A stretch of 64,000 nucleotides of DNA from an uncultured bacterium (GTDB lineage: Bacteria > Patescibacteriota > Saccharimonadia > UBA4664). The DNA lies in the NCBI GenBank assembly GCA_963740635.1, contig CAVUEQ010000001.1, forward strand, positions 209,026-273,025, given 5' to 3'. The translations under genes were made by a program, and so were the position numbers. Numbering within the stretch: the stretch's first letter is position 1; each line of letters starts with the position of its first letter. Shown piece after piece: positions 822 through 59,206 of this stretch. Under the pieces are notes generated by a model. That model did not search any database. It was not told the origin of the DNA and was given only the letters and a program-made list of their open reading frames with translations.

Positions 822-1002
822 CTGCTCCCAACCATTAGAGGATTGGACAAGCGAAAGGATTTATGATAGAGTGCTGATAGTTGTTGATCGTGAATAGCGC
901 GCCGAATTACTGGAACTGCGAATTTGCGAGGCAGTTTCAAGTAATTAGGAGATCTGTTTGTACCCACAATCAAGCGCCGGTCGCCGTCGCGGTGGCCGCC
1001 CC

Positions 1003-2247
1003 ATGTTTTCGTCGAAGAACTTGCGCCAGCCAAAAGTTAAAAATATCGACCCCAATAAATTCATTAATAAGGCCGTAGCGCCGCTCGACGAGGAAGTGTT
1101 TGAGCCGGTCCACAAATTTGTGGACTTCAAGCTCGACGACCGCATCCAATTCAACGTGGAGCAGCACGGATATGTGACCCCCACGCCCATTCAGGACGGG
1201 GCGATTCCGTACGTGCTGGCCGGCCGTGACCTGATTGGCCTGGCCAATACCGGCACCGGTAAAACGGCGGCGTTTTTGCTGCCGATTTTGCAGCGCATGC
1301 TGCACGGCATGGCCGGCCGCTGCCTGGTGCTGGTGCCCACGCGTGAGCTGGCGATCCAGATCGAGGAAGAGTTTAGGATTTTTGCCAAGGGCCTCAATCT
1401 GTACTCGACCCTCGTGGTGGGCGGCGCCTCGGTGGGCAGGCAGCAGTCGCAACTGTCGCGGCGGCCGCAGTTTATTATTGCCACGCCCGGCCGGCTGAAG
1501 GACCTGCTCGAAAATTATGGCCTCAAAATTTCTGATTTTGACGTCCTGGTGCTCGATGAGGCTGACCGCATGCTCGACATGGGCTTCATCCGCGACATCC
1601 GCGCGATCATGGGCTACCTGCGCGAAGACCGCCAAACGCTGTTTTTCAGCGCCACCATTACGCCTGATATTGAGCAACTACTCGACACTATTCTCAAAGA
1701 CCCGCACACCGTGAGCGTGCGCAAGGGCGAAACGAGCGACCACGTGGAGCAGGATGTGGTGCATGTGGAGGGTGGCAAAGAGGCCAAGGAAGCCAAGCTG
1801 GTGGAATTGCTGGGCGACCCTGAATTTAAGAAAGTGCTGATCTTTGGCGAAACCAAGTGGGGCGTGCAGAAGCTGGCCGACCGGCTGGAGCGCCGCGGCC
1901 TGCGGGTAGCGGCCATTCACGGCAACAAGAGCCAGCCGCAGCGCCAGAAGGCTCTAAACGATTTCAAGCTCGAGCGGGTGCAGGCGCTGATAGCCACCGA
2001 CGTGGCGGCGCGCGGCCTCGACATCCCGAATGTGTCGCACGTGATCAACTTCGACCCGCCCAAGCAATATGAGGACTACGTGCACCGCATCGGCCGCACC
2101 GGCCGCGCCGGATCCATGGGCAAGGCGCTGACGTTTGTGGCGACCGGTCCGGTGGCGTTTGCTGAGGCTACGCGGTCTTCGGCCGGTGGTGGCGGCGGAT
2201 ACCGCGGCAACGGTGGCGGTGGTGGTTACCGCGGCGGCCGGCGCTAA
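1003..2247 (+). CDS. DEAD-box ATP-dependent RNA helicase with Gly/Arg-rich C-terminal tail
   Basis: Motifs in the translation are 'TPIQ', 'NTGTGKTAAF' (Walker A), 'VLDEADRMLDMGF', 'SAT' and 'HRIGRTGRAG'. The tail is 'GGGGGYRGNGGGGGYRGGRR'. The ATG at 1003 is preferred over the TTG at 958 in the ORF track. Confidence 0.9.
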   Translation: MFSSKNLRQPKVKNIDPNKFINKAVAPLDEEVFEPVHKFVDFKLDDRIQFNVEQHGYVTPTPIQDGAIPYVLAGRDLIGLANTGTGKTAAFLLPILQRMLHGMAGRCLVLVPTRELAIQIEEEFRIFAKGLNLYSTLVVGGASVGRQQSQLSRRPQFIIATPGRLKDLLENYGLKISDFDVLVLDEADRMLDMGFIRDIRAIMGYLREDRQTLFFSATITPDIEQLLDTILKDPHTVSVRKGETSDHVEQDVVHVEGGKEAKEAKLVELLGDPEFKKVLIFGETKWGVQKLADRLERRGLRVAAIHGNKSQPQRQKALNDFKLERVQALIATDVAARGLDIPNVSHVINFDPPKQYEDYVHRIGRTGRAGSMGKALTFVATGPVAFAEATRSSAGGGGGYRGNGGGGGYRGGRR

Positions 2248-2391
2248 TTAACTCTTACTTATAAGGGTTCATTCCAGTTCGTATTGTGGTGCATGCCCTT
2301 TTTGCAAAATTAGCTATCACGTATTAGTAATCAGCTGATAGCTAAAACGCGTAACTAGGCATCTCCACTATCTATTAGGTAGCGGAGATAG

Positions 2392-2577
2392 CTAGTTTGG
2401 CGTTGGGGGTCTTGGCTGGTCGGCGGGGATTTCGGGTTCGGGGGCCGATTGCGGGGCGGCTTTCTCGTCGCCGGTAGAGGGGCCGAGCTGGCCGGCGTCG
2501 AGGTAGTACTGGCGGCTAGTGGAAGTGGTACCATCCTGGCTGACGAGGTTGGCGCCGGCTGGGACGTTTTTGGTCAT
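2392..2577 (-). pseudogene. Chimeric junction ORF: RHS-core fragment fused to a paralogue of the Clp ATPase C-terminal tail
   Basis: The translation is 'MTKNVPAGANLVSQDGTTSTSRQYYLD|AGQLGPSTGDEKAAPQSAPEPEIPADQPRPPTPN'. The first half repeats the RHS fragment at 3537-3573. The second half parallels the end of the Clp-like gene ('SLDAGQLGPSTGDEATAPKQPTPEPETPADQPLPPNN'). It is probably a recombination scar rather than a functional gene. Confidence 0.4.
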
Positions 2578-2609
2578 CAGGACTCGAGAACTTGATAGGC
2601 GGGTTTTGA

Positions 2610-2816
2610 CTAGGAATCGGAGCTATTAATGCTTCCTGCTAATTCATGTAGCAACTGGTTTGCGCGCTCCTTTGAGACGCCTAATCTAGTCTTAAACTCA
2701 GGTTCATCGAGCTTGATACCGTGACACACTTCATTTAGTGCGTTGTTCAAGAGCGTTGCTTCTTCCTTAGCCAAGCTGATGACTAGTTCGTCTTTTGTGA
2801 TGCTTATTGTCTTCAT
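2610..2816 (-). CDS. Small acidic protein, candidate immunity protein for the adjacent RHS C-terminal toxin domain
   Basis: A 68-aa ORF starts 11 nt after the stop of the RHS-CT frame on the same strand, in the same low-G+C stretch. This position is typical of immunity genes in polymorphic toxin loci. I recognise no family. Confidence 0.45.
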   Translation of the reverse strand: MKTISITKDELVISLAKEEATLLNNALNEVCHGIKLDEPEFKTRLGVSKERANQLLHELAGSINSSDS

Positions 2817-2827
2817 TCATTAAGCGC

Positions 2828-3595
2828 CTATCTTAGGTTGTTGTAATACTGCGTAGGGTTGGCGGGCCTAAACGCCGTACCCAAGTCTGGGTTAAGCGGA
2901 TCGTATATTACCACGGTTCCTGATGAAGCGTCTAGAAATCCTGTTCGTCCATTAGATAGCAACTTGTACGCAGTCGGATTTTCAATGACATTCTGTATGT
3001 GACTACTGAATTGTGCCTCACTATGTATGCCGAGGTTGGCAAATTCTGATAGGTGCTGCAGGGCATGGCCACGGCCAATGATGGAGCCGACTTTGCCGCC
3101 ACCCGGTAGCACTCCTAGAGCACTCCATGCAGCGCCCACACAGTCGCCAGCCTTGTAATCCTGGTACGCATGTATTGCGCTATCCGCGGCCCAGAAGAGG
3201 CCAGCGATTACTATGGCAACTCCGATCTGGATGAACTGGCAGGACGGATCGGTGTATATCAATGGGTTTCCATTAGCGTACGCATAGCCGTTTTGAGATT
3301 GTGGATCGCTTAGAGATCCACTAACAGGGTCCCGTGATGTGAAGCTGCCGAGAGTTGGATCGTAGGTACGGGCACGGAGGTTGTAGAGGCCGGTTTCACT
3401 GTCGGTCTGCTGGTTTTCGTACTTGAAGTCAGAGGTGTTGTTACCGGTGACCTGGTTGCCATAGGGATCGAAGGAGTAGGACTGGACGTTACTACCGGTG
3501 CTGTCTACGACTGCCCGGACGTTGCCAAGGCCGTCATCGAGGTAGTACTGGCGGCTAGTGGAGGTGGTACCATTTAGCCGGACTGATAGGCGGTA
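2828..3595 (-). pseudogene. Orphan RHS/YD-repeat core tip plus C-terminal toxin domain, lacking a start codon for the conserved part
   Basis: The frame is open from 3595, just after an in-frame TGA at 3596-3598, down to the stop at 2828. There is no ATG/GTG/TTG before 3262. My hand translation reads 'YRLSVRLNGTTSTSRQYYLDDGLGNVRAVVDSTGSNVQSYSFDPYGNQVTGNNTSDFKYENQQTDSETGLYNLRARTYDPTLGSFTSRDPVSGSLSDPQSQNGYAYANGNPLIYTDPSC'. That corresponds to the last YD repeats and the RHS core-end boundary (DPxG...N.Y.Y..NP....DP). About 135 aa of unassigned C-terminal domain follow. Confidence 0.75.
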
Positions 3596-3619
3596 TCATG
3601 TTCGTTCATAAGCTGCGAT

Positions 3620-4291
3620 TTAGCCCCTCTCCCAAAGTGAATACGTCTCATAGTCATATGCGGCGTTTACGACCGCTTTAGTGGCTGAGGCCATATCGTT
3701 AAGATCGTTTTCTGAAAGTTCTTGCCGCCTCTTTATTGTGGCTATTGGCACAATAAAGGCATTTAGTGGGTACCCGCTGGACTGGCTAAGATGCGCTGCC
3801 ATTTCCTCGCTAGTATGAATTTCGCCCAGCTCTTTTACGTGCAGGGGCTTGTCGTCAAAAAACAAGAGCTGAGCAGGTAGCTGTCTTTCTAGCACCAGAT
3901 CGCCCTTTCTCGCCAGGTCGTCTTCAACAACAACTGCGAGTGGTTGCTCAGACTTTTCAATGTCGCGTAGCTTCTCGAGTAGAATTTCCGCTTGCCTTTC
4001 AAATGAGATTTTTGGATCTGCCAACGCCCCTGTACTTAGATTTATATGGTCTTGCGCAGCCTTTTCGTGTTGAGGAAAAGCCAGTACTACCCTCGTGACC
4101 CCCTTGTTAAAGTCTAGTGATGCTAATGCGGCATGTGATAATTGGCCGCCGGCCTCTAGCGAGGCCTTCGTCCATCTGATTCCGTCCTCAAGCAAATTGT
4201 AAAAATGTGGCTTCATTCTTGTCATCCATAGATTTCGGTGCAATCCAGTCGCAATAATACCACATGGATTGGTTAGGGTGCGTAAACGCAT
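3620..4291 (-). CDS. Hypothetical protein (islet cargo, no recognisable family)
   Basis: A 223-aa ORF in the low-G+C islet between the Clp-like gene and the RHS fragment. Alternative in-frame ATGs at 4225 and 4216 are equally possible. No clear RBS. Confidence 0.5.
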   Translation of the reverse strand: MRLRTLTNPCGIIATGLHRNLWMTRMKPHFYNLLEDGIRWTKASLEAGGQLSHAALASLDFNKGVTRVVLAFPQHEKAAQDHINLSTGALADPKISFERQAEILLEKLRDIEKSEQPLAVVVEDDLARKGDLVLERQLPAQLLFFDDKPLHVKELGEIHTSEEMAAHLSQSSGYPLNAFIVPIATIKRRQELSENDLNDMASATKAVVNAAYDYETYSLWERG

Positions 4292-4475
4292 CCGAGCCGA
4301 AACAAATACCTACTCACGTACTCAAACATAAGCCGCCCTCCAGCTTCATTGATGATATTTAGCTTATTCTAAGTTGGCCGGAGTGCCAGCCGCAATTGGC
4401 TGAAGTGCTATTTCTGGCTACAGGTAGTTATCTGGGTGATGTTATGTGCGCATTTTGTGTGATTGTACTATCACA

Positions 4476-6929
4476 TCAGTTGTTTGGGGGCAGTGGCTGA
4501 TCGGCTGGAGTTTCAGGTTCGGGCGTGGGTTGCTTGGGGGCTGTCGCCTCGTCTCCGGTGGAGGGGCCGAGCTGGCCGGCGTCGAGGGAGACGGTGTCGC
4601 CGGGCTGGGCTTCGCCGCGCAGGATCATGGCGGCTACGGTGTCTTCCACGCGGCGCTGCACCATGCGGCGCATAGGGCGGGCGCCCAGGCGCGGGTCGTA
4701 GCCGGCCTTCACGAGCTCGGCGGCGGCCGCGTCGGTGAGGGTGACGGCGATTTTTTGGTTGGCGAGGGTTTTGTTGACCTCAGTGATCATGAGTTTAACG
4801 ACCTGGCCGAGCTCGGCTTCGTTGAGAGGGCGGAACAACACTATTTCGTCGAAGCGGTTGAGCAGTTCCGGGCGGAAGGCGCCGGAATCAATCAGTTGGT
4901 TGGTAAATTCCTGCTCGAAGTTCTCGAGCGCCTCCCCGGCCTGGATGCGGGCCCGGATATCCTCGGAGCCGGCATTACTGGTGGCAATAATGATGGCGTC
5001 CTTGAAACTGGCGGGGTGGCTGGAGGTATCGGTGAGGTTGCCTTCGTCGAGGAGTTGCAGGAGCAAGTTGAGGATGTTGGGGTGGGCTTTCTCGATTTCG
5101 TCGAACAACACCACGCTAAACGGTTTTTGGCGCACGCGCGGGAGCAGGCCTTCGGGGTTTTCGGCCGCGGTCATGAGAATGCGGTCAACGTCAGGGACTT
5201 GTTGGTATTCGGACATGTCGAGGCGGATAATGTTGTTTTCGTCGCCGAAATAGAGCGCGGCAATGCTGCGGGCGAGCTCGGTCTTACCGACGCCGGTGGG
5301 GCCCAGGAACAGGAACGAGCCGATGGGCCGTTTGGGGTTGGCGACGCCGGCGCGGGCGCGGCGCAGGGCGTTGGCGACCACGCTGACGGCGCGGGTTTGG
5401 TTGATCATGCGCTGGTGAATTTTGTCTTCCAGGTGGAGTAATACGTCGGATTCGGCGCTGGAGGCAGTTTGGACCTTCACTCCGAATTGTCCTTCCACGG
5501 CAACTTGGACGGATTTCTCGGTCACGAATGAGCCGTCGGGGTGGCTGGTGGCGGTTTCGAGCAGCTTGAGGGCTTTGCCGGGGTAGGCTTCGTCCTGGAA
5601 GTAGCGTCCGGACAGCCGGTAGGCTTCGAGCAGGGCCGAATAGGTGGTGACGAGTTTGCCGCGCTCCAGATACAGCGCCCGGTCGGCGAGTTGGCGCACT
5701 ACGCCGGCCTGGTCGGTTTCTGTGAGCACGAGCGGAGTCACCAGGCTGGCCATGGCGCTGTTGGTGGCCTTGAGCCGCTGCCAGTCGCCGGGGGTGAGGG
5801 CCAGCACCAGCTTGAAGCTGCGGGATTGCAGCAGCGGCAGCAGGACCTGGCTGAGGTTGACGGCGCCGGTGCCCTGGCCGAAGAACAGCTGGGCCTCGTC
5901 GAGCGCTACAATGATGTTGCCCGCATGGCCGGCCTCAGATAGCAATCCGGTGACGATGCGCTCAATGTCGCCGGTACCCTGGGCGGCCGACAGGATGCTT
6001 GAGGCATTGAGCGAGTAAATCTGGTAATGCGCGAGGCTGCGGCTGGCGCGGCCCTGGAGCAGGCGCTCGGCCAGGCCCAGGAGCAGGGCGGATTTGCCCA
6101 CGCCCGGCTCCCCCACCAGCACGACGCTCCCGGTGGCGCTGTCGAGGGCGGTGATGAGGTCGTCGAGCTGGGCGGTGCGCTCTTGCGTAGCCATATTGCC
6201 GGCGGCCGATTCCACGTCGAGGCTGAGGTTGGTGCCGAACTGCGCTAGCTGGGGCGTGAAGCCCGAGGCCCAGTCGCGGGCGATGCCGCCGTAGATAGGC
6301 CGCTTGATGTGGCTGAGCTGGATGACGCGGCGGGCCCAGAGCGCGCCGATCTCGAGGTCGGCCGGCGCCAGTTTGTGCTTGGTGAGGTAGGCCGAGAGCG
6401 CCGGTGTGAGCGCAAACAACGCGGCCAGCACGGCGCCGGCCTCGATGTTGGCGAAACCCAGCCGGGTGCTGACGGCTTCGGTTTCGGTCCAGAGTTGGTC
6501 AAAATCGATCTGGGCGGAGGCCAGCGTCCCGGCTACGAAATTGGCGTCGAGCTCGAAGCGCAAGGTTATGAAGCGCCCGTCAAAGGTTCGCGTGAGCATT
6601 TGCCATAGCTCGGCGGCAGTGAGCGGTTCGCGGTAGTTGGTGGCGAGTTCGAGGGGGAGCAGGGCGTCGAGTTGCTTGGTGGTGCCGATGGGAGCCGGGG
6701 GTAGTACGCCGAGGTCGCGCCGTACCCAGGTGAGGGTGGTGAGCAGCATGATGGCCAGGCCCGCCAGGCTGAGGCCCTGGTGGCGTCCAAACAGCACCAG
6801 GACGGCGCCGGATAGAAGCAGCAACCCGGCGGCCGCACCCAGGAGGGTTTTGAGGGCGTCCGGGAAGAGCTTGGCGCTGCGGGCCTTGGCGATACGGCCC
6901 GACAGGCTGTTAAACGTGTAGGCGCTCAT
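4476..6929 (-). CDS. Membrane-anchored double-AAA+ Clp/Hsp100-family ATPase
   Basis: There are two nucleotide-binding modules, 'LVGEPGVGKSALLLG' with 'IVALDEAQ' and 'FLFLGPTGVGKTELA' with 'VVLFDEIEKAH', plus sensor-2 'GARPMRR'. The N-terminus carries two hydrophobic helices ('LLGAAAGLLLLSGAVLVLF', 'LSLAGLAIMLLTTLTWV') ahead of Clp-N-like repeats. The ATG at 6929 overlaps the upstream stop as ATGA. Confidence 0.85.
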   Translation of the reverse strand: MSAYTFNSLSGRIAKARSAKLFPDALKTLLGAAAGLLLLSGAVLVLFGRHQGLSLAGLAIMLLTTLTWVRRDLGVLPPAPIGTTKQLDALLPLELATNYREPLTAAELWQMLTRTFDGRFITLRFELDANFVAGTLASAQIDFDQLWTETEAVSTRLGFANIEAGAVLAALFALTPALSAYLTKHKLAPADLEIGALWARRVIQLSHIKRPIYGGIARDWASGFTPQLAQFGTNLSLDVESAAGNMATQERTAQLDDLITALDSATGSVVLVGEPGVGKSALLLGLAERLLQGRASRSLAHYQIYSLNASSILSAAQGTGDIERIVTGLLSEAGHAGNIIVALDEAQLFFGQGTGAVNLSQVLLPLLQSRSFKLVLALTPGDWQRLKATNSAMASLVTPLVLTETDQAGVVRQLADRALYLERGKLVTTYSALLEAYRLSGRYFQDEAYPGKALKLLETATSHPDGSFVTEKSVQVAVEGQFGVKVQTASSAESDVLLHLEDKIHQRMINQTRAVSVVANALRRARAGVANPKRPIGSFLFLGPTGVGKTELARSIAALYFGDENNIIRLDMSEYQQVPDVDRILMTAAENPEGLLPRVRQKPFSVVLFDEIEKAHPNILNLLLQLLDEGNLTDTSSHPASFKDAIIIATSNAGSEDIRARIQAGEALENFEQEFTNQLIDSGAFRPELLNRFDEIVLFRPLNEAELGQVVKLMITEVNKTLANQKIAVTLTDAAAAELVKAGYDPRLGARPMRRMVQRRVEDTVAAMILRGEAQPGDTVSLDAGQLGPSTGDEATAPKQPTPEPETPADQPLPPNN

Positions 6930-7285
6930 AACAGCCCCCCCACGATGAAGGCCGGCCCGAGTACCGGGATCACCGGCCACAGGATCAGCAGCGTGCCGCC
7001 GATGATCGCGTATAGGCCCATGATGGTGATGGCGGCCAGCAGCGCCATCAGCCGCACCATAAACCCGACCACGCGCGAAATGAGGTTGTCGAGCGCGGCC
7101 CGTAATTTGGCTTCAATCCCCCGCCCCGGGTATGAAATTATCCGCCGCCAGGGTGCGAACATGGTCGGCAGCAGCATTGGCACGCTAAACATCAGGTAAG
7201 TATCGCGGATGCGTGAGCTCAGCCGGTTGGCGGCGTCGCGCCATCCGGGTCCGTACCACCACTGCACAAACGCCACCAGAAGCAT
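6926..7285 (-). CDS. Small polytopic membrane protein, translationally coupled to the Clp-like ATPase
   Basis: The 119-aa product has hydrophobic segments ('LMALLAAITIMGLYAIIGGTLLILWPVIPVLGPAFIVGGLL'). Its stop overlaps the next start (ATGA). An extended -10 TGCTACAAT ends 6 nt before the ATG, giving a leaderless layout. Confidence 0.6.
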   Translation of the reverse strand: MLLVAFVQWWYGPGWRDAANRLSSRIRDTYLMFSVPMLLPTMFAPWRRIISYPGRGIEAKLRAALDNLISRVVGFMVRLMALLAAITIMGLYAIIGGTLLILWPVIPVLGPAFIVGGLL

Positions 7286-8443: not shown

Positions 8444-9115
8444 TTAGCCGGCGCCGCTCGGCCCTGCAGTGGCCGATATCAGCGTGCCTAGTACGATGCG
8501 GTTGTCTTCGTGTGATCCCTCTCCAGGGAGGATGCATGATACAAGCGCGGCGTCGTAGTGCCCGAAGTTGAAATGGGGCATGCGAGCTTTGGGCTGGTGC
8601 ACTACCGCGTCGATGCGGTAGGTGAAAGAGCCTTTGAGGCTCTGAACAACCGCTGTGTCTCCCGGGACGGCGAGATTCAGCCGCGTGAACGGGCAGGTGT
8701 GATGTATGCAGGTGTGCCCGTACATGATCGAAGTGCCTTTTGAGGGATATTGCGGCTGAACAGAACTTGTCCAGAAGACCGCCCGTCCCCAGATTGGCGG
8801 GTCGATGACAGCTTCTTTCCGGGACGCTATATCATCGACTCCGGCCTCGATCAGCTTGTGACCGCTATGGATCACCTCAAGGTAATACGGGTCATACTGG
8901 GGGTCATAAACCTTCTTGCGGTCCGGGGCTGCGATGACCAGCGGCGGCGTACTTGGCGGTCGGGAGGTAGCCGCCGCTGACGTCGTCGTTGCGATTGGAG
9001 GACCGGCAGGCAGTGAGCCTTCGGTGGTCGCGGAACTGGTGCACGATGTGAGCAGCACCGCGACCATTGCAGCCGCAAAACCTGCAAGCGACTGCGTAAC
9101 TCTCCAGCGGCCCAT
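8444..9115 (-). CDS. Sortase-family transpeptidase-like lipoprotein
   Basis: A lipobox 'LLTSC' follows the N-terminal hydrophobic segment. Sortase-like catalytic spacing is present: 'IMYGHT' (His), 'LAVPGDTAVVQ...FTYRI', 'ALVSC' (Cys), 'NRIVL' (Arg). Confidence 0.65.
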   Translation of the reverse strand: MGRWRVTQSLAGFAAAMVAVLLTSCTSSATTEGSLPAGPPIATTTSAAATSRPPSTPPLVIAAPDRKKVYDPQYDPYYLEVIHSGHKLIEAGVDDIASRKEAVIDPPIWGRAVFWTSSVQPQYPSKGTSIMYGHTCIHHTCPFTRLNLAVPGDTAVVQSLKGSFTYRIDAVVHQPKARMPHFNFGHYDAALVSCILPGEGSHEDNRIVLGTLISATAGPSGAG

Positions 9116-9121
9116 TGCGGC

Positions 9122-9841
9122 TCAGAAGTCGCCGGTGTAGCCGGGCGGGGCACCACCAGTGACCACCTCAACCGGGGCCTGCACCGGCGCGGGGGCCGGG
9201 ACATGCACCACGACGGTGACGGGCGGGGGCTGGTGGCCAGGCCGGTTCACGAAGACCGTCTTCGTGACGGGCTTGGGAGCCGGCTTCTCGACGACGACCG
9301 TCCGCGTGACGGTCGGTGGCTGATGGGCCGGCGGAGTGGTGGTTGGTGTGGGAGCCGGCGGGGTCGTGGTCGGCGGCGGCGGCGGGGTTGTGGCCGGCGG
9401 CTTGGTCGGGCAAGGGGTCTTGCCGCGGTGATCAATCGGTCTCGGGTGTTCCGTCGGCTTCGGGTGCTCGGTCGCCTTGGGGTGCTCACCCTTGTCGCGG
9501 TCGCCCTTGGGGTGGTCGCCGTCCTTGCGGTCCTTGTCGTTGCCCTGGCCGATGACACCCTTGCCGTGGTCGTCCTTGCGGCCGTGGTCGCTGGTCGCTG
9601 TGGCGTGGCCGTCGCGGCCGTTGCCGTGGTTGCCATGGTTGTCCCACGCGCTGGCGCTGCCAGCGAGTGCGAGACTGAGGACGAGGGCGGCGAGCAGGGC
9701 CACCAGTGCGGCGAACGGCCGCACGAAGCGCGCGGCCGGCCTGGCCGGCTGGTGCCGGTGGGCACGGGGAGCGGGGATTTCCGGCTCGGTGGTTTGCTGG
9801 TGGTGGCGGCCCTCGTAGAAGGCCCTGTGCAAGTAGGACAT
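9122..9841 (-). CDS. Secreted His-rich / Pro-Thr-rich repeat protein
   Basis: The ATG at 9841 is preceded by GAAGGGA. A signal-like segment 'FAALVALLAALVLSLALAGSASA|W' is followed by 'DNHGNHGNGRDGH...DHGKG...EHPKATEHPKPTEHPRPIDH' and 'TTPPPPPTTTPPAPTPTTTPP'. The gene lies 6 nt upstream of the sortase-like gene. Confidence 0.6.
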   Translation of the reverse strand: MSYLHRAFYEGRHHQQTTEPEIPAPRAHRHQPARPAARFVRPFAALVALLAALVLSLALAGSASAWDNHGNHGNGRDGHATATSDHGRKDDHGKGVIGQGNDKDRKDGDHPKGDRDKGEHPKATEHPKPTEHPRPIDHRGKTPCPTKPPATTPPPPPTTTPPAPTPTTTPPAHQPPTVTRTVVVEKPAPKPVTKTVFVNRPGHQPPPVTVVVHVPAPAPVQAPVEVVTGGAPPGYTGDF

Positions 9842-10073
9842 GTTGGTCCCTTCTTGGGTTGTTCGCGAATTCCGGCTGGCTGCCGGGCATCCCATTTGGG
9901 AACGCATTTCAGCCTACTGCGCAGGGCAATAAGCTGGGGTGCGTTCCCAAAAATGTGCGATCTGACATGTCAAAGTATCAACTGCACGAGGATTTCCTCT
10001 CCGCACAGCCAATCGCAGATTTTAGCATGCTTTCAAGCATTTTGTCTATGGCATAATTGGCAGGTTCTGTCCA

Positions 10074-11066: not shown

Positions 11067-11912
11067 CTACCGGATAACCCAGTTGCCGGCGCCGAGGTTG
11101 CGGACCTTGCCGGTGATCTCCATGAGGCTGATGATGTTGGCGAACTGGGCCGCGCTGAACCGGCCCTTTTCAATCAGCTCTTCGCTGGAGGTAGCGCCTT
11201 CCTCGAGCAGTTTGACGATGAGCTTTTCATCGGGGCTTTGCGCCGGGACGGGTACGGCTTCGCGGGCGTTGAAGCCGAGCGCATTGATGACGTCGGCGGA
11301 CGATGTGACGGGCGTGGCGCCGCTGCGCAGGAGATTGTTCGGTCCCGCCGAGAACTCGGAGTAGATGCTGCCGGGCACCGCCATCACCTGCCGGCCGAGG
11401 CCCAAAGCGCGGTGGGCTGTGATGAGCGCACCGCTTTTGGTGGCGGCTTCGGTGACGATGGTAGCGAAACTAAGCGCCGCGATAATGCGGTTGCGCTCCA
11501 CGAAATTTTCTTTGTAGGGGGGAATCCCAACTTCGTATTCGGAAACCAAGGCGCCGCCTTTGGCCAAAATCTCGGCGGCCAGTCCCCGGTGCCGCGGAGG
11601 GTAGATGCGGTCGAGCCCGTGGGCCAGCACTGCTACGGTCTTGCCGCCGGCGTCGAGGGCGGCGCGGTGGGCGATGGAATCAATGCCGATGGCCAGGCCA
11701 CTCACGATGACAGCGCCCGCACGCGACAATTCCTTCGCGATTTGGTAGGTCGCTTTCTCTCCGTAAATGGTGGGCTTGCGCGAGCCAACAATGGCGACGA
11801 GCGAATCTTTGGGCAATTCTCCTAAAACGTTAATGCTTTTGACGGGCGGGCCGGCCTGGCGCAGCTGATCTGGAAACTTACTTGATTTGGAAGAAATCTT
11901 AGAAATTTGCAT
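11067..11912 (-). CDS. dprA: DNA-processing protein DprA (Smf)
   Basis: 'IVGSRKPTIYGEKATYQIAKELSRAGAVIVSGLAIGIDSIAHRAAL...AVLAHGLDRIYP' is the canonical DprA Rossmann core. Confidence 0.9.
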   Translation of the reverse strand: MQISKISSKSSKFPDQLRQAGPPVKSINVLGELPKDSLVAIVGSRKPTIYGEKATYQIAKELSRAGAVIVSGLAIGIDSIAHRAALDAGGKTVAVLAHGLDRIYPPRHRGLAAEILAKGGALVSEYEVGIPPYKENFVERNRIIAALSFATIVTEAATKSGALITAHRALGLGRQVMAVPGSIYSEFSAGPNNLLRSGATPVTSSADVINALGFNAREAVPVPAQSPDEKLIVKLLEEGATSSEELIEKGRFSAAQFANIISLMEITGKVRNLGAGNWVIR

Positions 11913-13227: not shown

Positions 13228-13246
13228 GGATATTTAAAGCGGCGGA

Positions 13247-13288
13247 GTTATATGCACTTTGCATATATGCGAAATGCATATAGTTACG
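13247..13288. repeat. AT-rich nested palindrome, copy A
   Basis: The sequence is agTTATATGCAcTTTGCATATATGCGAAATGCATATAGTTac, lying between convergent gene ends (13227 and 13326). It belongs to the same family as 16699-16738 and 59135-59178. Confidence 0.8.
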
Positions 13289-16651: not shown

Positions 16652-16698
16652 CTAAAGGGTAACCCTCTGGGCTTTATGAGAATACGTCTATTCCACGA

Positions 16699-16738
16699 AA
16701 CTATATGCATTTCGCATATATGCAGATTGCATATAGTT
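16699..16738. repeat. AT-rich nested palindrome, copy B
   Basis: The sequence is AACTATATGCAtTTCGCATATATGCAGAtTGCATATAGTT, with 11-bp perfect outer arms and the inner palindrome GCATATATGC. It abuts the stop codon of the pseudouridine synthase gene (16740). Confidence 0.8.
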
Positions 16739-16739
16739 T

Positions 16740-17429
16740 TCATGGTTGCGTTTTCCCTGGGACGTGGCCGGAGCTGTCGGTTTCGATCCAGTGGCTAGGC
16801 GGGAGGTTGCCGAGGATGAAACTGCCGGCGTGGGTACGGTGCAGCCGCGTAATGCCGTAGCCGAGGGCGCCGAAGGTGCGGCGGAGTTGGCGGTTGCGGC
16901 CTTCTTCGAGCTCGACGGTCACGTGGGGTCCCTGGACTGAGATAATTGCTACCCTACTAGGACCGTCCGGGAGCTGGATGCCGTGGCTGAGTTTGGGTTG
17001 GTCACTGGGCTTGAGGGCGGTGGTGAGCGTGAGTTCGTAACGCTTAGTTTTGCCGAGCGACGGATGGGTGAGCCGGTTGATGAATGGGCCGTCATCGGAC
17101 AGCAAAATGAGGCCTGACGAGTCGCGGTCGAGGCGGCCGGCGATGCGCAGGCGGCCGAATTTGGCCGGCAGCAATTCGTAGAGCGTGGGGCCCCCGCCTT
17201 GCCGGGCGCGGCTGGAGATGTAGCCGGCGGGCTTGTTGAGCATGACGTAAGTGTGGGCGGTGCGGGGTGTGAGCGGTTGCTCGTCGAGGGTGAGATGGTC
17301 GGTCGGTGCGATTATTTGACCGAGGGTGGCGGGCCGGCCGTTGAGTTTAACGCGTCCGGCCGTGATGGCCGTATCGGCGGCGCGCCGCGACAGTCCGGAG
17401 GCTGAGGCCACGAATTGGTTAATTCTCAC
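16740..17429 (-). CDS. Pseudouridine synthase, RsuA/RluB family
   Basis: It has an S4 domain 'INQFVASASGLSRRAADTAITAGRVKLNG' and the catalytic 'GRLDRDSSGLILLSDDG'. The GTG at 17429 is preceded by GGAGG at 6-nt spacing and is preferred over the ATG at 17534, which lies inside scpB. Confidence 0.85.
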   Translation of the reverse strand: MRINQFVASASGLSRRAADTAITAGRVKLNGRPATLGQIIAPTDHLTLDEQPLTPRTAHTYVMLNKPAGYISSRARQGGGPTLYELLPAKFGRLRIAGRLDRDSSGLILLSDDGPFINRLTHPSLGKTKRYELTLTTALKPSDQPKLSHGIQLPDGPSRVAIISVQGPHVTVELEEGRNRQLRRTFGALGYGITRLHRTHAGSFILGNLPPSHWIETDSSGHVPGKTQP

Positions 17430-59037: not shown

Positions 59038-59134
59038 GTGTTTGTTTTGGTGCTGTGTGAGATTACTTTAGCATAAGCGGGTTATTAATGCGAATGCGGC
59101 CCTCTCTATTACGGTACCGTATATTAACAAGGCG

Positions 59135-59178
59135 GTAACTATATGCACTTCGCATATATGCAGAATGCATATAGTTAC
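59135..59178. repeat. AT-rich nested palindrome, copy C
   Basis: The sequence is GTAACTATATGCAcTTCGCATATATGCAGAATGCATATAGTTAC, with 13-bp perfect outer arms and the inner palindrome GCATATATGC. Confidence 0.8.
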
Positions 59179-59206
59179 GCGGAAAGGTATACGCTGTAAA
59201 TAGGCT

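What the first reader, a model, noticed from the sequence alone, without database searches (positions are those of the whole stretch)
2392..4587. Diverged duplicate of the Clp ATPase 3' tail marks both ends of the low-G+C islet
- **Shared tail:** The last ~37 codons of the Clp-like gene (4476-4587, '...SLDAGQLGPSTGDEATAPKQPTPEPETPADQPLPPNN*') reappear at 2392-2503 as 'YYLDAGQLGPSTGDEKAAPQSAPEPEIPADQPRPPTPN*'.
- **Similarity:** The two copies share an identical 27-nt core GAGGGGCCGAGCTGGCCGGCGTCGAGG (2477-2503 versus 4561-4587). Elsewhere they are clearly diverged.
- **Junction:** In the lower copy the tail is fused at the 'LD' codons to RHS-core sequence.
- **Boundary:** No similarity continues past either stop codon.

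The ~2-kb segment between the tails (a 223-aa unknown gene, the RHS-CT and the candidate immunity gene) therefore looks like an insertion or recombination product anchored on the Clp gene's 3' end.
Basis: seen in the sequence. Interest (0 to 1): 0.55.

Follow-up and report, generated by a model that had tools for sequence, protein, structure and literature searches.

The report
Recombination scar flanking orphan Rhs toxin islet
A 2-kb foreign segment carrying a leftover toxin/antidote cassette sits behind a chaperone-like gene of a tiny Saccharibacteria genome, bracketed by two diverged copies of that gene's tail; this looks like an ordinary one-off DNA-joining accident rather than a new kind of mobile element.

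Summary
The last 37 codons of the Clp-like AAA+ gene (4476-4587, minus strand) recur at 2392-2503. Identity is about 81%, with an identical 27-nt core, and there are only these two copies in the 64 kb. The lower copy is fused in frame to an Rhs-core fragment at a 6-nt microhomology (TCGAGG), which is also present in the Clp gene and in a second Rhs-core fragment.

The window comes from a high-G+C Saccharimonadia (TM7) genome. In relatives, Clp and the convergent DEAD-box helicase are neighbours. The gap between them runs from 8 bp to 2.6 kb and holds unrelated cargo. None of 21 relatives has a second tail.

The islet (49% G+C against 59% for the window) is a slice of an orphan Rhs toxin/immunity array:
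- a 223-aa gene whose only homologue sits directly after another mini-Rhs toxin;
- a start-less Rhs core plus a BECR-type RNase-like toxin domain;
- its cognate 68-aa immunity gene;
- a truncated next Rhs core.

The two tails differ like alleles of different lineages: 21% of shared-residue codons carry synonymous changes, and the indels are in frame. They are therefore not a fresh target-site duplication. My best reading is recombination between an islet-bearing and an islet-free Clp allele, homologous on one side and microhomology-mediated on the other. This is a known kind of event and of modest interest.

The parts
4476..6980 (-). Clp-like double AAA+ ATPase with an N-terminal membrane region. 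It is the live gene that carries tail A.
   Evidence: Pfam AAA_2 at 3e-43 and ClpB_D2-small at 6e-24. NCBIfam ClpB/ClpA partial hits lie below the equivalog cut-offs. Orthologues at 60-78% identity keep conserved synteny.
4476..4587 (-). Tail A: the Pro-rich C-terminal tail of the live Clp gene (LDAGQLGPSTGDEATAPKQPTPEPETPADQPLPPNN*).
   Evidence: Orthologues all carry variable Pro-rich tails after ...GDTITLDA. Tail A is followed only by a weak hairpin with z of -0.4.
4561..4587 (.). Upper copy of the identical 27-nt core. It includes TCGAGG at 4582-4587.
4217..4475 (-). AT-rich spacer between the Clp stop codon and the probable start of the 223-aa gene. It forms the upper edge of the islet.
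   Evidence: G+C is 0.45 in the 4201-4500 window of the composition profile. No similarity to 2248-2391. No remnant of the P0001-type toxin was detected.
3620..4291 (-). unk223, an orphaned gene in the immunity position. Its likely true start is Met26, at 4216.
   Evidence: No Pfam or NCBIfam hit. Its only homologue outside the source genome (38% identity over 195 aa, E of 3e-40) lies 63 nt downstream of the mini-Rhs toxin P0001 in L058.
3233..3583 (-). Orphan Rhs core fragment A (GTTSTSRQYYLDDGLGN...PLIYTDPSC). It has no in-frame start codon.
   Evidence: TIGR03696 Rhs_assc_core at 2.6e-19. It is 77% identical to P0001 over 117 aa. The first in-frame ATG/GTG/TTG is at 3262.
2828..3232 (-). 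CT1, the polymorphic toxin tip: a hydrophobic linker followed by a toxin domain of about 90 aa of the BECR (RNase-like) type.
   Evidence: 791 representative homologues, always at C-termini and including full-length Rhs proteins. A sequence profile hits PDB 8EY4_A at E of 0.0015. The AlphaFold2 model's best fold match is also 8EY4_A, followed by CdiA-CT NC101, colicin D and RelE. It is 52% identical to the tip of a CdiA VENN protein in Pantoea.
2610..2816 (-). imm68, the cognate immunity gene of CT1.
   Evidence: 38% identity over 60 aa (pairwise E of 3e-13) to the 66-aa gene immediately after the homologous CdiA toxin on Pantoea dispersa plasmid NZ_CP082347.
2504..2589 (-). Rhs core fragment B, the 5' end of the next orphan cassette, truncated at the LD codons.
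   Evidence: Its translation, SRVLMTKNVPAGANLVSQDGTTSTSRQYYLD, aligns with the N-terminus of P0001. Positions 2498-2534 match 3537-3573 at 36 of 37 bases.
2498..2503 (.). Microhomology joint TCGAGG (CCTCGA on the minus strand, the LD codons). The same hexamer occurs in Rhs fragment A (3537-3542) and in Clp (4582-4587).
   Evidence: Read directly from the sequence and the three-way alignment. The extended context, CCTCGATGACGGCC in the Rhs fragment against CCTCGACGCCGGCC in Clp, matches at 12 of 14 bases.
2392..2503 (-). Tail B, a relic of the 3' end of a second Clp allele. It is now the C-terminal half of a 61-aa chimeric ORF (2392-2577).
   Evidence: The 61-aa ORF is annotated as a gene in the source genome (P0178).
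2333..2397 (-). Strong hairpin overlapping the tail B stop codon and followed by a U-rich stretch. It is probably the original Clp terminator of the islet-free arrangement.
   Evidence: -26.8 kcal/mol, z of -5.0, and 0 of 200 shuffles fold as well. Compact relatives L001 and L048 have a comparable hairpin between the Clp stop and the helicase.
958..2247 (+). Convergent DEAD-box helicase, the conserved right-hand neighbour of Clp.
   Evidence: Pfam DEAD at 6e-47 and Helicase_C at 2e-32. Synteny in relatives.

Best explanation
The region is a recombination scar between two versions of the same chromosomal locus in related Saccharimonadia.

**The two parent versions**
- One version carried a slice of an orphan Rhs toxin/immunity array in the hypervariable gap behind its Clp-like gene: Clp-tail A, unk223, Rhs core A with toxin CT1, imm68, Rhs core B, and onward.
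- The other was the compact, islet-free version: Clp-tail B, terminator hairpin, helicase.

**How they were joined**
- The two were joined by homology-facilitated illegitimate recombination.
- One crossover lay in ordinary homology, either in the Clp body or on the helicase side.
- The other end was sealed at a 6-nt microhomology, CCTCGA, the Leu-Asp codons. This hexamer occurs both in the Rhs core (...QYYLD|DGLG) and at the start of the Clp tail (...VSLD|AGQL).
- The result is a live Clp gene with tail A, the 2.0-kb islet, and a dead in-frame chimera of Rhs core B and tail B lying next to the old terminator.

**What the cargo is**
- It is not a transposon or an integrase-driven element.
- It is a silent toxin cassette (Rhs core without a start codon plus a BECR-type RNase-like toxin) with its cognate immunity gene, plus a second stranded immunity-position gene.
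- If anything is under selection, it is probably the immunity genes.

**Shown and inferred**
- Shown: the repeats, the joint, the synteny, and the identity of the toxin/immunity pair.
- Inferred: the two-allele origin, the direction of transfer, and the uptake route. Natural transformation is plausible because dprA lies 7 kb away.
For: **Repeats**
- The repeats are real and unique.

**Joint**
- The lower tail is fused in frame to an Rhs core exactly at TCGAGG. This hexamer is shared by Clp, Rhs fragment A and the chimera, and the extended context matches at 12 of 14 bases.

**Tails behave as diverged functional alleles**
- 28 codons encode the same residue in both tails, and 6 of them (21%) differ synonymously.
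- There are also 7 amino-acid replacements and 2 in-frame indels (worked out by hand from the sequence).
- For comparison, 33% of shared-residue codons differ synonymously between the window and its closest public relative, L075.
- By contrast, the Rhs repeat next to the joint is 36 of 37 identical, so the tails were not made by one recent duplication.

**Two parent arrangements**
- Tail B keeps a strong terminator hairpin (z of -5) next to the helicase, like the compact relatives L001 and L048. Tail A does not.

**Synteny**
- Clp then the convergent helicase is conserved. The gap is 8-2557 bp with unrelated cargo in about 25 relatives.
- No tail duplicate occurs in the gap of 21 relatives.

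**Islet content**
- Rhs_assc_core at 2.6e-19.
- The toxin domain has 791 homologues at C-termini of proteins that include full-length Rhs and CdiA.
- The toxin/immunity pair is conserved in Pantoea.
- The unk223 homologue lies directly after another mini-Rhs toxin.
- G+C is 49% against 59%.

**Absence of mobile-element features**
- No integrase, tRNA or known RNA lies at the borders.

**Precedent**
- Homology-facilitated illegitimate recombination has already been proposed for Rhs C-terminal displacement and for type VI secretion effector-immunity arrays (PMC5361080, read).
Against: - No genome close enough to show either parent allele was found. An exact scan for the 27-nt core in metagenomes gave 0 hits. 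The best Clp relative is 78% identical. No tail A-like or tail B-like tail exists elsewhere.
- The homologous crossover is not visible. Sliding identity of Clp against relatives shows no clear breakpoint.
- The perfect 27-nt core beside the joint is somewhat more conserved than expected (P about 0.04-0.12). This is also what a crossover or att core would look like.
- Recombination between alleles this diverged should be inefficient.
- No full-length rhs gene was seen in the window or retrieved from the source contig, so where the array came from is unknown.
- The source is probably a metagenome-assembled contig, and read support for the joint could not be checked.
Confidence: 0.55

Rival explanations
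1. Site-specific (or Campbell-type) integration of a small element whose attachment site includes a surrogate copy of the Clp 3' end. The model is prophages e14 and 21, which insert into icd and supply a replacement 3' end. On this reading the 27-nt identical core is the crossover site, tail A is the element-borne replacement, and tail B is the displaced native end.
For: - An identical core is followed by diverged sequence that runs exactly to the stop codon on both copies, and the target gene stays intact.
- The native terminator stays with tail B.
- The icd/e14 comparison is recalled from my own knowledge, not tested here.
Against: - No recombinase or any other mobility gene lies in the 2 kb. 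All three ORFs lack such domains.
- The sequence abutting the core on the element side is a truncated Rhs core that shares CCTCGA with Clp. This is the mark of a microhomology joint, not an att arm.
- None of 21 relatives with cargo in the same gap shows a duplicated tail.
- The 27-nt core has no match in 241 million metagenome records.
- The islet has no match in the plasmid collection, and unk223 has none in the phage collection.
Confidence: 0.1
2. An old intragenomic tandem duplication. Unequal crossing-over at CCTCGA between Rhs core B and the Clp LD codons duplicated the tail inside one genome, and copy B has since drifted as a pseudogene.
For: The same microhomology joint would be produced. 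No second genome needs to be invoked.
Against: - A tandem duplication would repeat the whole 2084-bp unit. Instead, tail B is followed by unrelated sequence, a hairpin and the helicase.
- About 19% divergence of the tails contrasts with 36 of 37 identity of the adjacent Rhs repeat. The chance of at most one difference in 37 nt at 20% divergence is about 0.003.
- Both indels are in frame and tail B is still open, which is unexpected for a long-dead remnant in a genome with a main contig of about 0.83 Mb.
- Relatives that diverged on a similar time-scale lack the duplication.
Confidence: 0.1
3. A multi-step history: a microhomology-circularised fragment re-inserted by a single crossover in the 27-nt core, or a larger import followed by an internal deletion. 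In either case the present joint would not be the original entry joint.
For: It explains the perfect core next to the joint while keeping the microhomology origin of the fusion between Rhs fragment B and the core.
Against: It needs more events than the best explanation. A core of 27 nt is near the lower limit for RecA-dependent exchange, which I state from general knowledge. Nothing in the data requires this history.
Confidence: 0.2
4. An assembly artefact: a chimeric join of two strain haplotypes in a metagenome assembly.
For: The source contig (828,923 bp) is probably from a metagenome. Two alleles of one locus appear in a single path.
Against: Rhs fragment B and tail B overlap by only 6 nt of shared sequence, far below any assembler's k-mer length. 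Reads containing the joint must therefore exist. The 61-aa frame is also preserved across the joint.
Confidence: 0.05

Closest known systems
Orphan Rhs toxin/immunity modules and Rhs C-terminal displacement (Jackson et al. 2009, BMC Genomics 10:584, cited via PMC5361080; Poole et al. 2011, PMC3150448; Koskiniemi et al. 2014, PMC3967940)
   Same: - Start-less fragments of the conserved Rhs core are followed by a variable toxin tip and a small immunity gene, arranged head to tail, with short core repeats between cassettes.
- A stranded immunity gene is left over from an earlier cassette.
   Different: - No full-length rhs gene lies upstream. The array slice sits behind an unrelated housekeeping-type gene in a Patescibacteria genome.
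- The array is cut off by fusion to a Clp tail.
- The core ends in DPSC rather than the usual DPxG(L/M) motif.
Homology-facilitated illegitimate recombination (de Vries & Wackernagel 2002; Prudhomme et al. 2002; Meier & Wackernagel 2003; applied to effector-immunity arrays in PMC5361080)
   Same: One side lies in homology and the other is a short G+C-rich microhomology joint. The net effect is gain or loss of foreign DNA next to a conserved anchor gene.
   Different: - The event is inferred from one genome only.
- The anchor crossover is not visible and the direction of transfer (gain or partial loss of the islet) is unknown.
- A stretch of the anchor gene ends up present twice, as two alleles.
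Integrative elements that carry a replacement 3' end of their target gene (e14 and phage 21 in icd; islands in tRNA 3' ends). This comparison is from my own knowledge.
   Same: A diverged direct repeat of the target gene's 3' end brackets the insert, the repeat has an identical core, and the target gene stays intact.
   Different: There is no integrase, no recurrence in relatives, and the element-side arm is a truncated Rhs core joined by microhomology.
BECR-fold RNase toxins of contact-dependent inhibition (CDI) systems and colicins (PDB 8EY4 CDI toxin of E. coli O32:H37; CdiA-CT NC101, 5I4R; colicin D, 1V74 and 1TFO)
   Same: - CT1 has the helix-helix-four-strand layout.
- It has a conserved GHA-x2-KH ... 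GR ... GTAF(R)P signature.
- It sits at the C-termini of Rhs and CdiA proteins.
- A small immunity gene lies immediately downstream.
   Different: Only about 24% identity to 8EY4_A. There is no Pfam model. Activity and substrate are untested. The structural model is of moderate confidence (pLDDT 62.7).

Membership tests
Rhs orphan toxin/immunity cassette | Rhs repeat-associated core domain immediately before the variable tip | tested here: met
   TIGR03696 Rhs_assc_core at E of 2.6e-19 and 69.5 bits against a cut-off of 32.5. It is 77% identical to the core of P0001, which carries PF25023.
Rhs orphan toxin/immunity cassette | Core ends in the PxxxxDPxG(L/M) demarcation motif | tested here: inconclusive
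   The window has NPLIYTDPSCQ, with Cys in place of Gly. P0001 has NPINLSDPSGM. The motif position is conserved but the Gly is not.
Rhs orphan toxin/immunity cassette | Variable C-terminal toxin domain that also occurs on full-length Rhs or other polymorphic toxin carriers | tested here: met
   791 representative homologues, all C-terminal. P0029, P0035, P0052 and P0056 are 1.2-2.2-kaa RHS_repeat proteins. A CdiA VENN carrier occurs in Pantoea.
Rhs orphan toxin/immunity cassette | Cognate immunity gene directly downstream | tested here: met
   imm68 starts 12 nt after the toxin stop codon. It is homologous (E of 3e-13) to the gene directly after the homologous toxin in Pantoea. Neutralisation itself is not testable here.
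Rhs orphan toxin/immunity cassette | Orphan status: 5'-truncated with no start codon of its own | tested here: met
   No in-frame ATG/GTG/TTG lies between the upstream stop (3584-3586) and 3262.
Rhs orphan toxin/immunity cassette | A full-length rhs gene upstream or elsewhere, with which the orphan can recombine | tested here: not met
   There is no ORF over 850 aa and no further Rhs-core match in the 64 kb. The protein search returned no long Rhs from the 828,923-bp source contig. The rest of the genome could not be read.
Homology-facilitated illegitimate recombination product | Illegitimate joint at a short G+C-rich microhomology | tested here: met
   CCTCGA is shared by both parent sequences at the joint, and the extended context matches at 12 of 14 bases.
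Homology-facilitated illegitimate recombination product | The other end lies in a homologous anchor shared by donor and recipient | tested here: inconclusive
   Clp and the helicase are conserved flanks. No breakpoint is detectable without closer relatives.
Homology-facilitated illegitimate recombination product | Donor and recipient alleles are distinguishable | tested here: met
   The tails differ at 21% of shared-residue codons, with 7 replacements and 2 in-frame indels (derived; calibrated).
Homology-facilitated illegitimate recombination product | A DNA-uptake route (natural competence) | not testable with these tools
   The ORF at 11067-11912 has DprA-like relatives in synteny, and I labelled it dprA without running a domain search. 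Competence itself cannot be shown here.
Integrase-driven element with surrogate 3' end | Element-encoded tyrosine or serine recombinase | tested here: not met
   No recombinase domain occurs in any islet ORF at Pfam E up to 10 or in NCBIfam.
Integrase-driven element with surrogate 3' end | Recurrent use of the same att core in related genomes | tested here: not met
   No tail duplicate occurs in the Clp-helicase gap of 21 relatives. The core has 0 exact matches in metagenome contigs.
BECR-fold RNase toxin | Two N-terminal helices plus a four-stranded antiparallel sheet, with structural similarity to solved members | tested here: met
   The AlphaFold2 model has helices at 24-33 and 38-50, four strands and one further helix. 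Foldseek's top hit is 8EY4_A with TM of 0.62/0.69, followed by CdiA-CT NC101, colicin D, RelE and HigB. A sequence profile also hits 8EY4_A at E of 0.0015. The model confidence is only moderate.
BECR-fold RNase toxin | RNase activity | not testable with these tools
   An experiment is needed.

The most novel reading that the evidence does not exclude
The Clp-helicase gap may be a standing hot spot. There, soil Saccharimonadia, which are small-genome episymbionts, would capture immunity genes and silent toxin cassettes from neighbours by DNA uptake and one-sided homologous recombination. On this reading the islet is an acquired interbacterial-defence locus of a Patescibacteria cell. The immunity genes unk223 and imm68 would be kept because they protect against Rhs or CdiA toxins delivered by other bacteria, possibly including hosts.
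Probability: 0.25. Interest if true: 0.5.

Novelty: new member of a known kind. Interest (0 to 1): 0.3.

Why it matters
- **Mechanism on display.** This is a clean, base-resolved natural example of how toxin/immunity cassettes get stranded next to housekeeping genes. One microhomology joint leaves a dead in-frame chimera and two alleles of a gene tail in one chromosome.
- **Reach of polymorphic-toxin traffic.** Rhs and CdiA-type toxin traffic reaches ultra-small Saccharimonadia genomes.
- **A variable locus.** The Clp-helicase gap is a variable spot in this clade.
- **A toxin family without a model.** The work also defines a widespread toxin domain that has no Pfam model (signature GHA-x2-KH...GTAFRP, about 790 representative clusters) together with its small immunity family.
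- **Limits.** None of this changes the current understanding of Rhs biology or of recombination.

Tried and rejected
- **Parent alleles.** I looked for them four ways. The exact 27-nt core in metagenome contigs gave 0 hits. The Clp protein against 185,579 species genomes and against 241 million metagenome records gave a best identity of 77-78%, with no islet and no tail A-like or tail B-like tail. A word-index protein search with both tails returned only Clp C-terminal fragments and the chimera itself. Exact-sequence look-up of unk223 and P0011 found nothing on record.
- **Crossover breakpoint in Clp.** Sliding identity against 7 relatives showed no convincing switch.
- **Remnant of an earlier toxin upstream of unk223.** None was found.
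- **unk223 annotation.** Pfam, NCBIfam, plasmid and phage searches gave nothing. The single-sequence AlphaFold2 model had pLDDT of 41.7 and was unusable, so it was not searched.
- **imm68 against the PDB.** Only spurious matches to designed repeat proteins appeared.
- **Promoter and terminator consensus scan of 2200-4700.** Counts were at or below the shuffle expectation.
- **Rfam and tRNA at the borders.** Nothing was found.
- **Literature on Rhs in Saccharibacteria.** No relevant paper was found.
- **The 27-nt core as a special site.** I considered and rejected this. Once codon constraint is allowed for, its perfection is only marginally unusual.

Full report
**1. Check of the observation**

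All features lie on the minus strand.
- The 834-aa ORF 4476-6980 ends ...GDTVSLDAGQLGPSTGDEATAPKQPTPEPETPADQPLPPNN*.
- A 61-aa ORF, 2392-2577, reads MTKNVPAGANLVSQDGTTSTSRQYYLDAGQLGPSTGDEKAAPQSAPEPEIPADQPRPPTPN*.
- The repeat finder pairs 2453-2506 with 4537-4590 at 85% identity.
- A global alignment of the two tails gives 94 identical of 116 ungapped columns, or 81%.
- The run GAGGGGCCGAGCTGGCCGGCGTCGAGG is identical at 2477-2503 and 4561-4587.
- The local alignment score is 39, against 8.3 +/- 1.2 (maximum 14) in 2000 shuffles.
- A scan of both strands of the 64 kb finds only these two copies.
- At the protein level, each tail finds the other at E of about 2e-14. The next hits are at E of 0.002-0.006 and are Pro-rich noise.
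- Similarity begins at the Leu-Asp codons and ends at the stop codons.

**2. Organism and neighbourhood**

The Clp-like protein has relatives almost only in Saccharimonadia (TM7, Patescibacteria) metagenome-assembled genomes. The best identity is 77-78%.

The gene order dprA, dus, a 201-aa gene, a 119-aa membrane gene, Clp, then a convergent DEAD-box helicase is conserved.

The distance between the Clp stop and the helicase stop ranges widely:
- 8 bp in L013, 75 bp in L001 and 80 bp in L048.
- 2.3 kb in L002 and 2.6 kb in L006.

The gap holds unrelated cargo in different genomes:
- often a membrane protein of about 135 aa;
- a 553-aa ORF in L002;
- a 115-aa ORF in the closest relative, L075.

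In the compact genomes, the Clp stop is followed by a strong hairpin and then the helicase.

All orthologues carry a Pro-rich tail of variable length after ...GDTITLDA. L075 even shares LDAGQLG.

None of the relatives has the islet genes at tblastn E of 1e-4 to 1e-5. None of 21 relatives has a second copy of its own Clp tail in the gap.

**3. What the islet contains**

Reading 5' to 3' on the minus strand, after the Clp stop codon:

(a) An AT-rich spacer of about 260 nt.

(b) unk223 (3620-4291).
- It has no family match.
- Its only homologue outside the source genome is a 199-aa ORF in the 3.1-kb metagenome contig L058. Identity is 38% over 195 aa, with E of 3e-40.
- That ORF lies 63 nt after P0001, a 260-aa mini-Rhs protein with a different toxin tip.
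- unk223 therefore occupies the position of an immunity gene whose toxin is no longer present here.

(c) Rhs core fragment A (3583-3233).
- It hits Rhs_assc_core at E of 2.6e-19 and is 77% identical to P0001.
- It has no in-frame start codon before 3262, so it is a true orphan.

(d) The toxin tip CT1.
- Its last 90 or so residues have 791 representative homologues in 1.84 billion proteins. These always lie at C-termini, including those of 1.2-2.2-kaa RHS-repeat proteins.
- The conserved signature is GHA-x2-KH ... GR ... GTAF(R)P.
- A profile of the family matches one solved structure, 8EY4_A, at E of 0.0015. This is a CDI toxin of E. coli O32:H37 and is labelled a PT-VENN protein.
- A single-sequence AlphaFold2 model (pLDDT 62.7; helix, helix, four strands, helix) has 8EY4_A as its best fold match. 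TM is 0.62/0.69 and rmsd is 2.4 Å. The next matches are CdiA-CT NC101, colicin D tRNase, RelE and HigB.
- CT1 is therefore a BECR-type, probably RNase, toxin. The activity itself is inferred.

(e) imm68 (2610-2816).
- A CdiA-type (VENN) orphan on Pantoea dispersa plasmid NZ_CP082347 ends in a CT1 homologue at 52% identity.
- The 66-aa gene directly after it is 38% identical to imm68 over 60 residues, with E of 3e-13.
- The toxin/immunity pair thus travels together on two different delivery scaffolds, which is strong evidence that it is a cognate pair.

(f) Rhs core fragment B (2589-2504).
- Its translation, SRVLMTKNVPAGANLVSQDGTTSTSRQYYLD, starts at the same point as the N-terminus of P0001.
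- It is the beginning of a further cassette, cut off at LD.

Other properties of the islet:
- G+C is 49%, against 59% for the window. L058 is 48%.
- There is no recombinase, tRNA or Rfam RNA.
- The islet has no plasmid match and unk223 has no phage match.
- The window contains no full-length rhs gene.

**4. Anatomy of the joints**

Three sequences share the hexamer TCGAGG (CCTCGA in the coding sense, the Leu-Asp codons):
- Clp at 4582-4587;
- Rhs fragment A at 3537-3542;
- the chimera at 2498-2503.

On one side of the hexamer, the chimera follows the Rhs core: 2498-2534 matches 3537-3573 at 36 of 37 bases. On the other side, it follows the Clp tail. The parental contexts, CCTCGATGACGGCC (Rhs) and CCTCGACGCCGGCC (Clp), match at 12 of 14 bases. 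This is the signature of a microhomology-mediated illegitimate joint. An overlap this short also rules out a k-mer assembly chimera.

At the other end of each tail, the sequences are unrelated from the stop codon onward.
- Tail B is followed by a 19-bp-stem hairpin at -26.8 kcal/mol, with z of -5.0, then a U-rich stretch and the helicase.
- Tail A is followed by a weak hairpin (z of -0.4) and then the islet.

**5. How old is the difference between the tails?**

I compared the two tails codon by codon, by hand, from the sequence.
- 28 codons encode the same residue in both tails, and 6 of these differ synonymously (21%).
- None of the 9 codons in the core differs. Six of the 19 beyond the core do.
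- The distal half of the tail has 7 replacements and two indels, and both indels are in frame.

For calibration, 33% of shared-residue codons differ synonymously between this Clp and its closest public relative, L075. The figure is 41-44% for L001, L002 and L004.

The tails are therefore as different as the genes of distinct, though fairly close, lineages. Both kept an open frame, as expected if each was recently the end of a working gene.

The neighbouring Rhs repeat is 36 of 37 identical. The chance of at most one difference in 37 nt at 20% divergence is about 0.003. A single recent duplication therefore cannot have produced both repeats, and a target-site duplication made when the low-G+C islet arrived is excluded.

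The perfect 27-nt core is only marginally unexpected once amino-acid constraint is allowed for (P about 0.04-0.12).

**6. Most likely history**

Two versions of the locus existed in related populations:
- an islet-bearing one: Clp-tail A, islet, Rhs core B and onward;
- a compact one: Clp-tail B, terminator, helicase.

They recombined with one crossover in homology and one illegitimate joint at CCTCGA.

The event could have run in either direction. Either a compact genome gained the islet, with the anchor in Clp. Or an islet-bearing genome lost the distal part of its array to incoming compact DNA, with the anchor on the helicase side. The present data do not say which.

This is homology-facilitated illegitimate recombination. 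It has already been invoked for Rhs C-terminal displacement and for effector-immunity arrays (PMC5361080). The ORF I labelled dprA, 7 kb away, is compatible with natural transformation, but the label rests on synteny with DprA-like relatives, and competence is not shown.

I give this reading a probability of 0.55. The rivals are:
- a multi-step variant that involves the core (0.2);
- an integrase-type element with a surrogate 3' end, as in icd/e14 (0.1). It is disfavoured by the lack of a recombinase, by the microhomology with Rhs, and by the absence of recurrence;
- an old tandem duplication (0.1). It is disfavoured by the unrelated downstream flanks and by the discordant divergence of the two repeats;
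- an assembly artefact (0.05).

**7. Function**

- The Rhs cassette has no start codon and no delivery shell, so it is silent, or at most a toxin/antitoxin-like pair.
- The 61-aa chimera is a by-product, although the source genome annotates it as a gene (P0178).
- The genes most likely to matter to the cell are the two in the immunity position. This is inference.
- Because tail A lacks a strong terminator, Clp transcription may read into unk223. This is untested.

**8. Comparison with known systems, and verdict**

- The content is a typical orphan Rhs toxin/immunity array fragment. It fails one membership criterion: no main rhs gene was found.
- The event is a typical illegitimate-recombination scar.
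- The toxin belongs to a large BECR-like family that has no Pfam model.
- The setting, a Saccharimonadia genome with a variable Clp-helicase gap, is mildly new. I found no literature on Rhs in this group.

I classify the finding as a new member of a known kind, with an interest score of 0.3.

Noticed in passing
window 13230-13288, 16683-16741, 59121-59179: Three copies of an AT-rich, internally palindromic element of about 50-59 nt (core TATATGCAnTTnGCATATATGCnnAnTGCATATAGTT). They are 64-93% alike and are found both as direct and as inverted repeats (families D3 and I1-I4). They appear to sit at gene boundaries and may be an operator or repeated regulatory site.
   Followed up: no
window 4476-7285 and loci L001-L115: The Clp-like protein is unusual. 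It has an N-terminal membrane-spanning region ahead of two AAA+ modules. Its start always overlaps a conserved 119-aa membrane-protein gene (6926-7285). It scores far below the ClpB and ClpA equivalog cut-offs. It looks like a clade-specific, membrane-anchored unfoldase of Saccharimonadia.
   Followed up: partly
loci L005, L006, L007, L010, L011, L014, L015, L047 (Clp-helicase gap): Many relatives carry, in the same gap, a conserved gene for a membrane protein of about 135 aa (motif ...RFV..LF...NGFV.F....TNW...PFQ...FFD.PA.AA...). L011 and L047 also carry a second, related membrane-protein gene of about 125-146 aa in the gap. The window lacks this gene entirely.
   Followed up: no
L058 1-3143 (metagenome contig BUSI22-1 scaffold_85965): The mini-Rhs P0001 (260 aa) has its own ATG exactly where Rhs fragment B of the window begins (M-SRVLVAKNIPG). 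This suggests a conserved 5' boundary of these cassettes, and possibly their stand-alone expression. Downstream lie the unk223 homologue and a 228-aa protein with a Phage_P4_cII hit.
   Followed up: partly
L059 10001-11080 (Logan contig, 39% G+C, next to gatB, dnaE, rplS and rnhB): This is another short Rhs-core protein (P0002, 359 aa). It is 52% identical to the window's Rhs core and sits among housekeeping genes (gatB, dnaE, rplS, rnhB) in a low-G+C contig that may be another small Patescibacteria-type genome. It hints that stranded Rhs fragments may recur in such genomes.
   Followed up: no
window 9122-9907 and 8444-9115 (minus strand): A 261-aa ORF with a His/Gly/Asp/Lys-rich repeat region (HGNHGNG..., DKDRKDGDHPKGDRDKGEHPK...) and a Pro/Thr-rich stretch lies next to a 223-aa ORF that looks like a sortase-type transpeptidase. 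It may be a surface protein and its anchoring enzyme. These are seen only as translations, and no domain search was run.
   Followed up: no
window 11067-11912 (minus strand): A 281-aa ORF that I labelled dprA, a DNA-processing protein of natural transformation. The label rests on conserved synteny with DprA-like relatives, and no domain search was run. It is relevant to the proposed DNA-uptake route.
   Followed up: partly
L116 (Pantoea dispersa plasmid NZ_CP082347, record 398973-402206): The CT1-like toxin there sits in an array of orphan CdiA (VENN) fragments. A SymE-family type I toxin gene lies between the cassettes.
   Followed up: no
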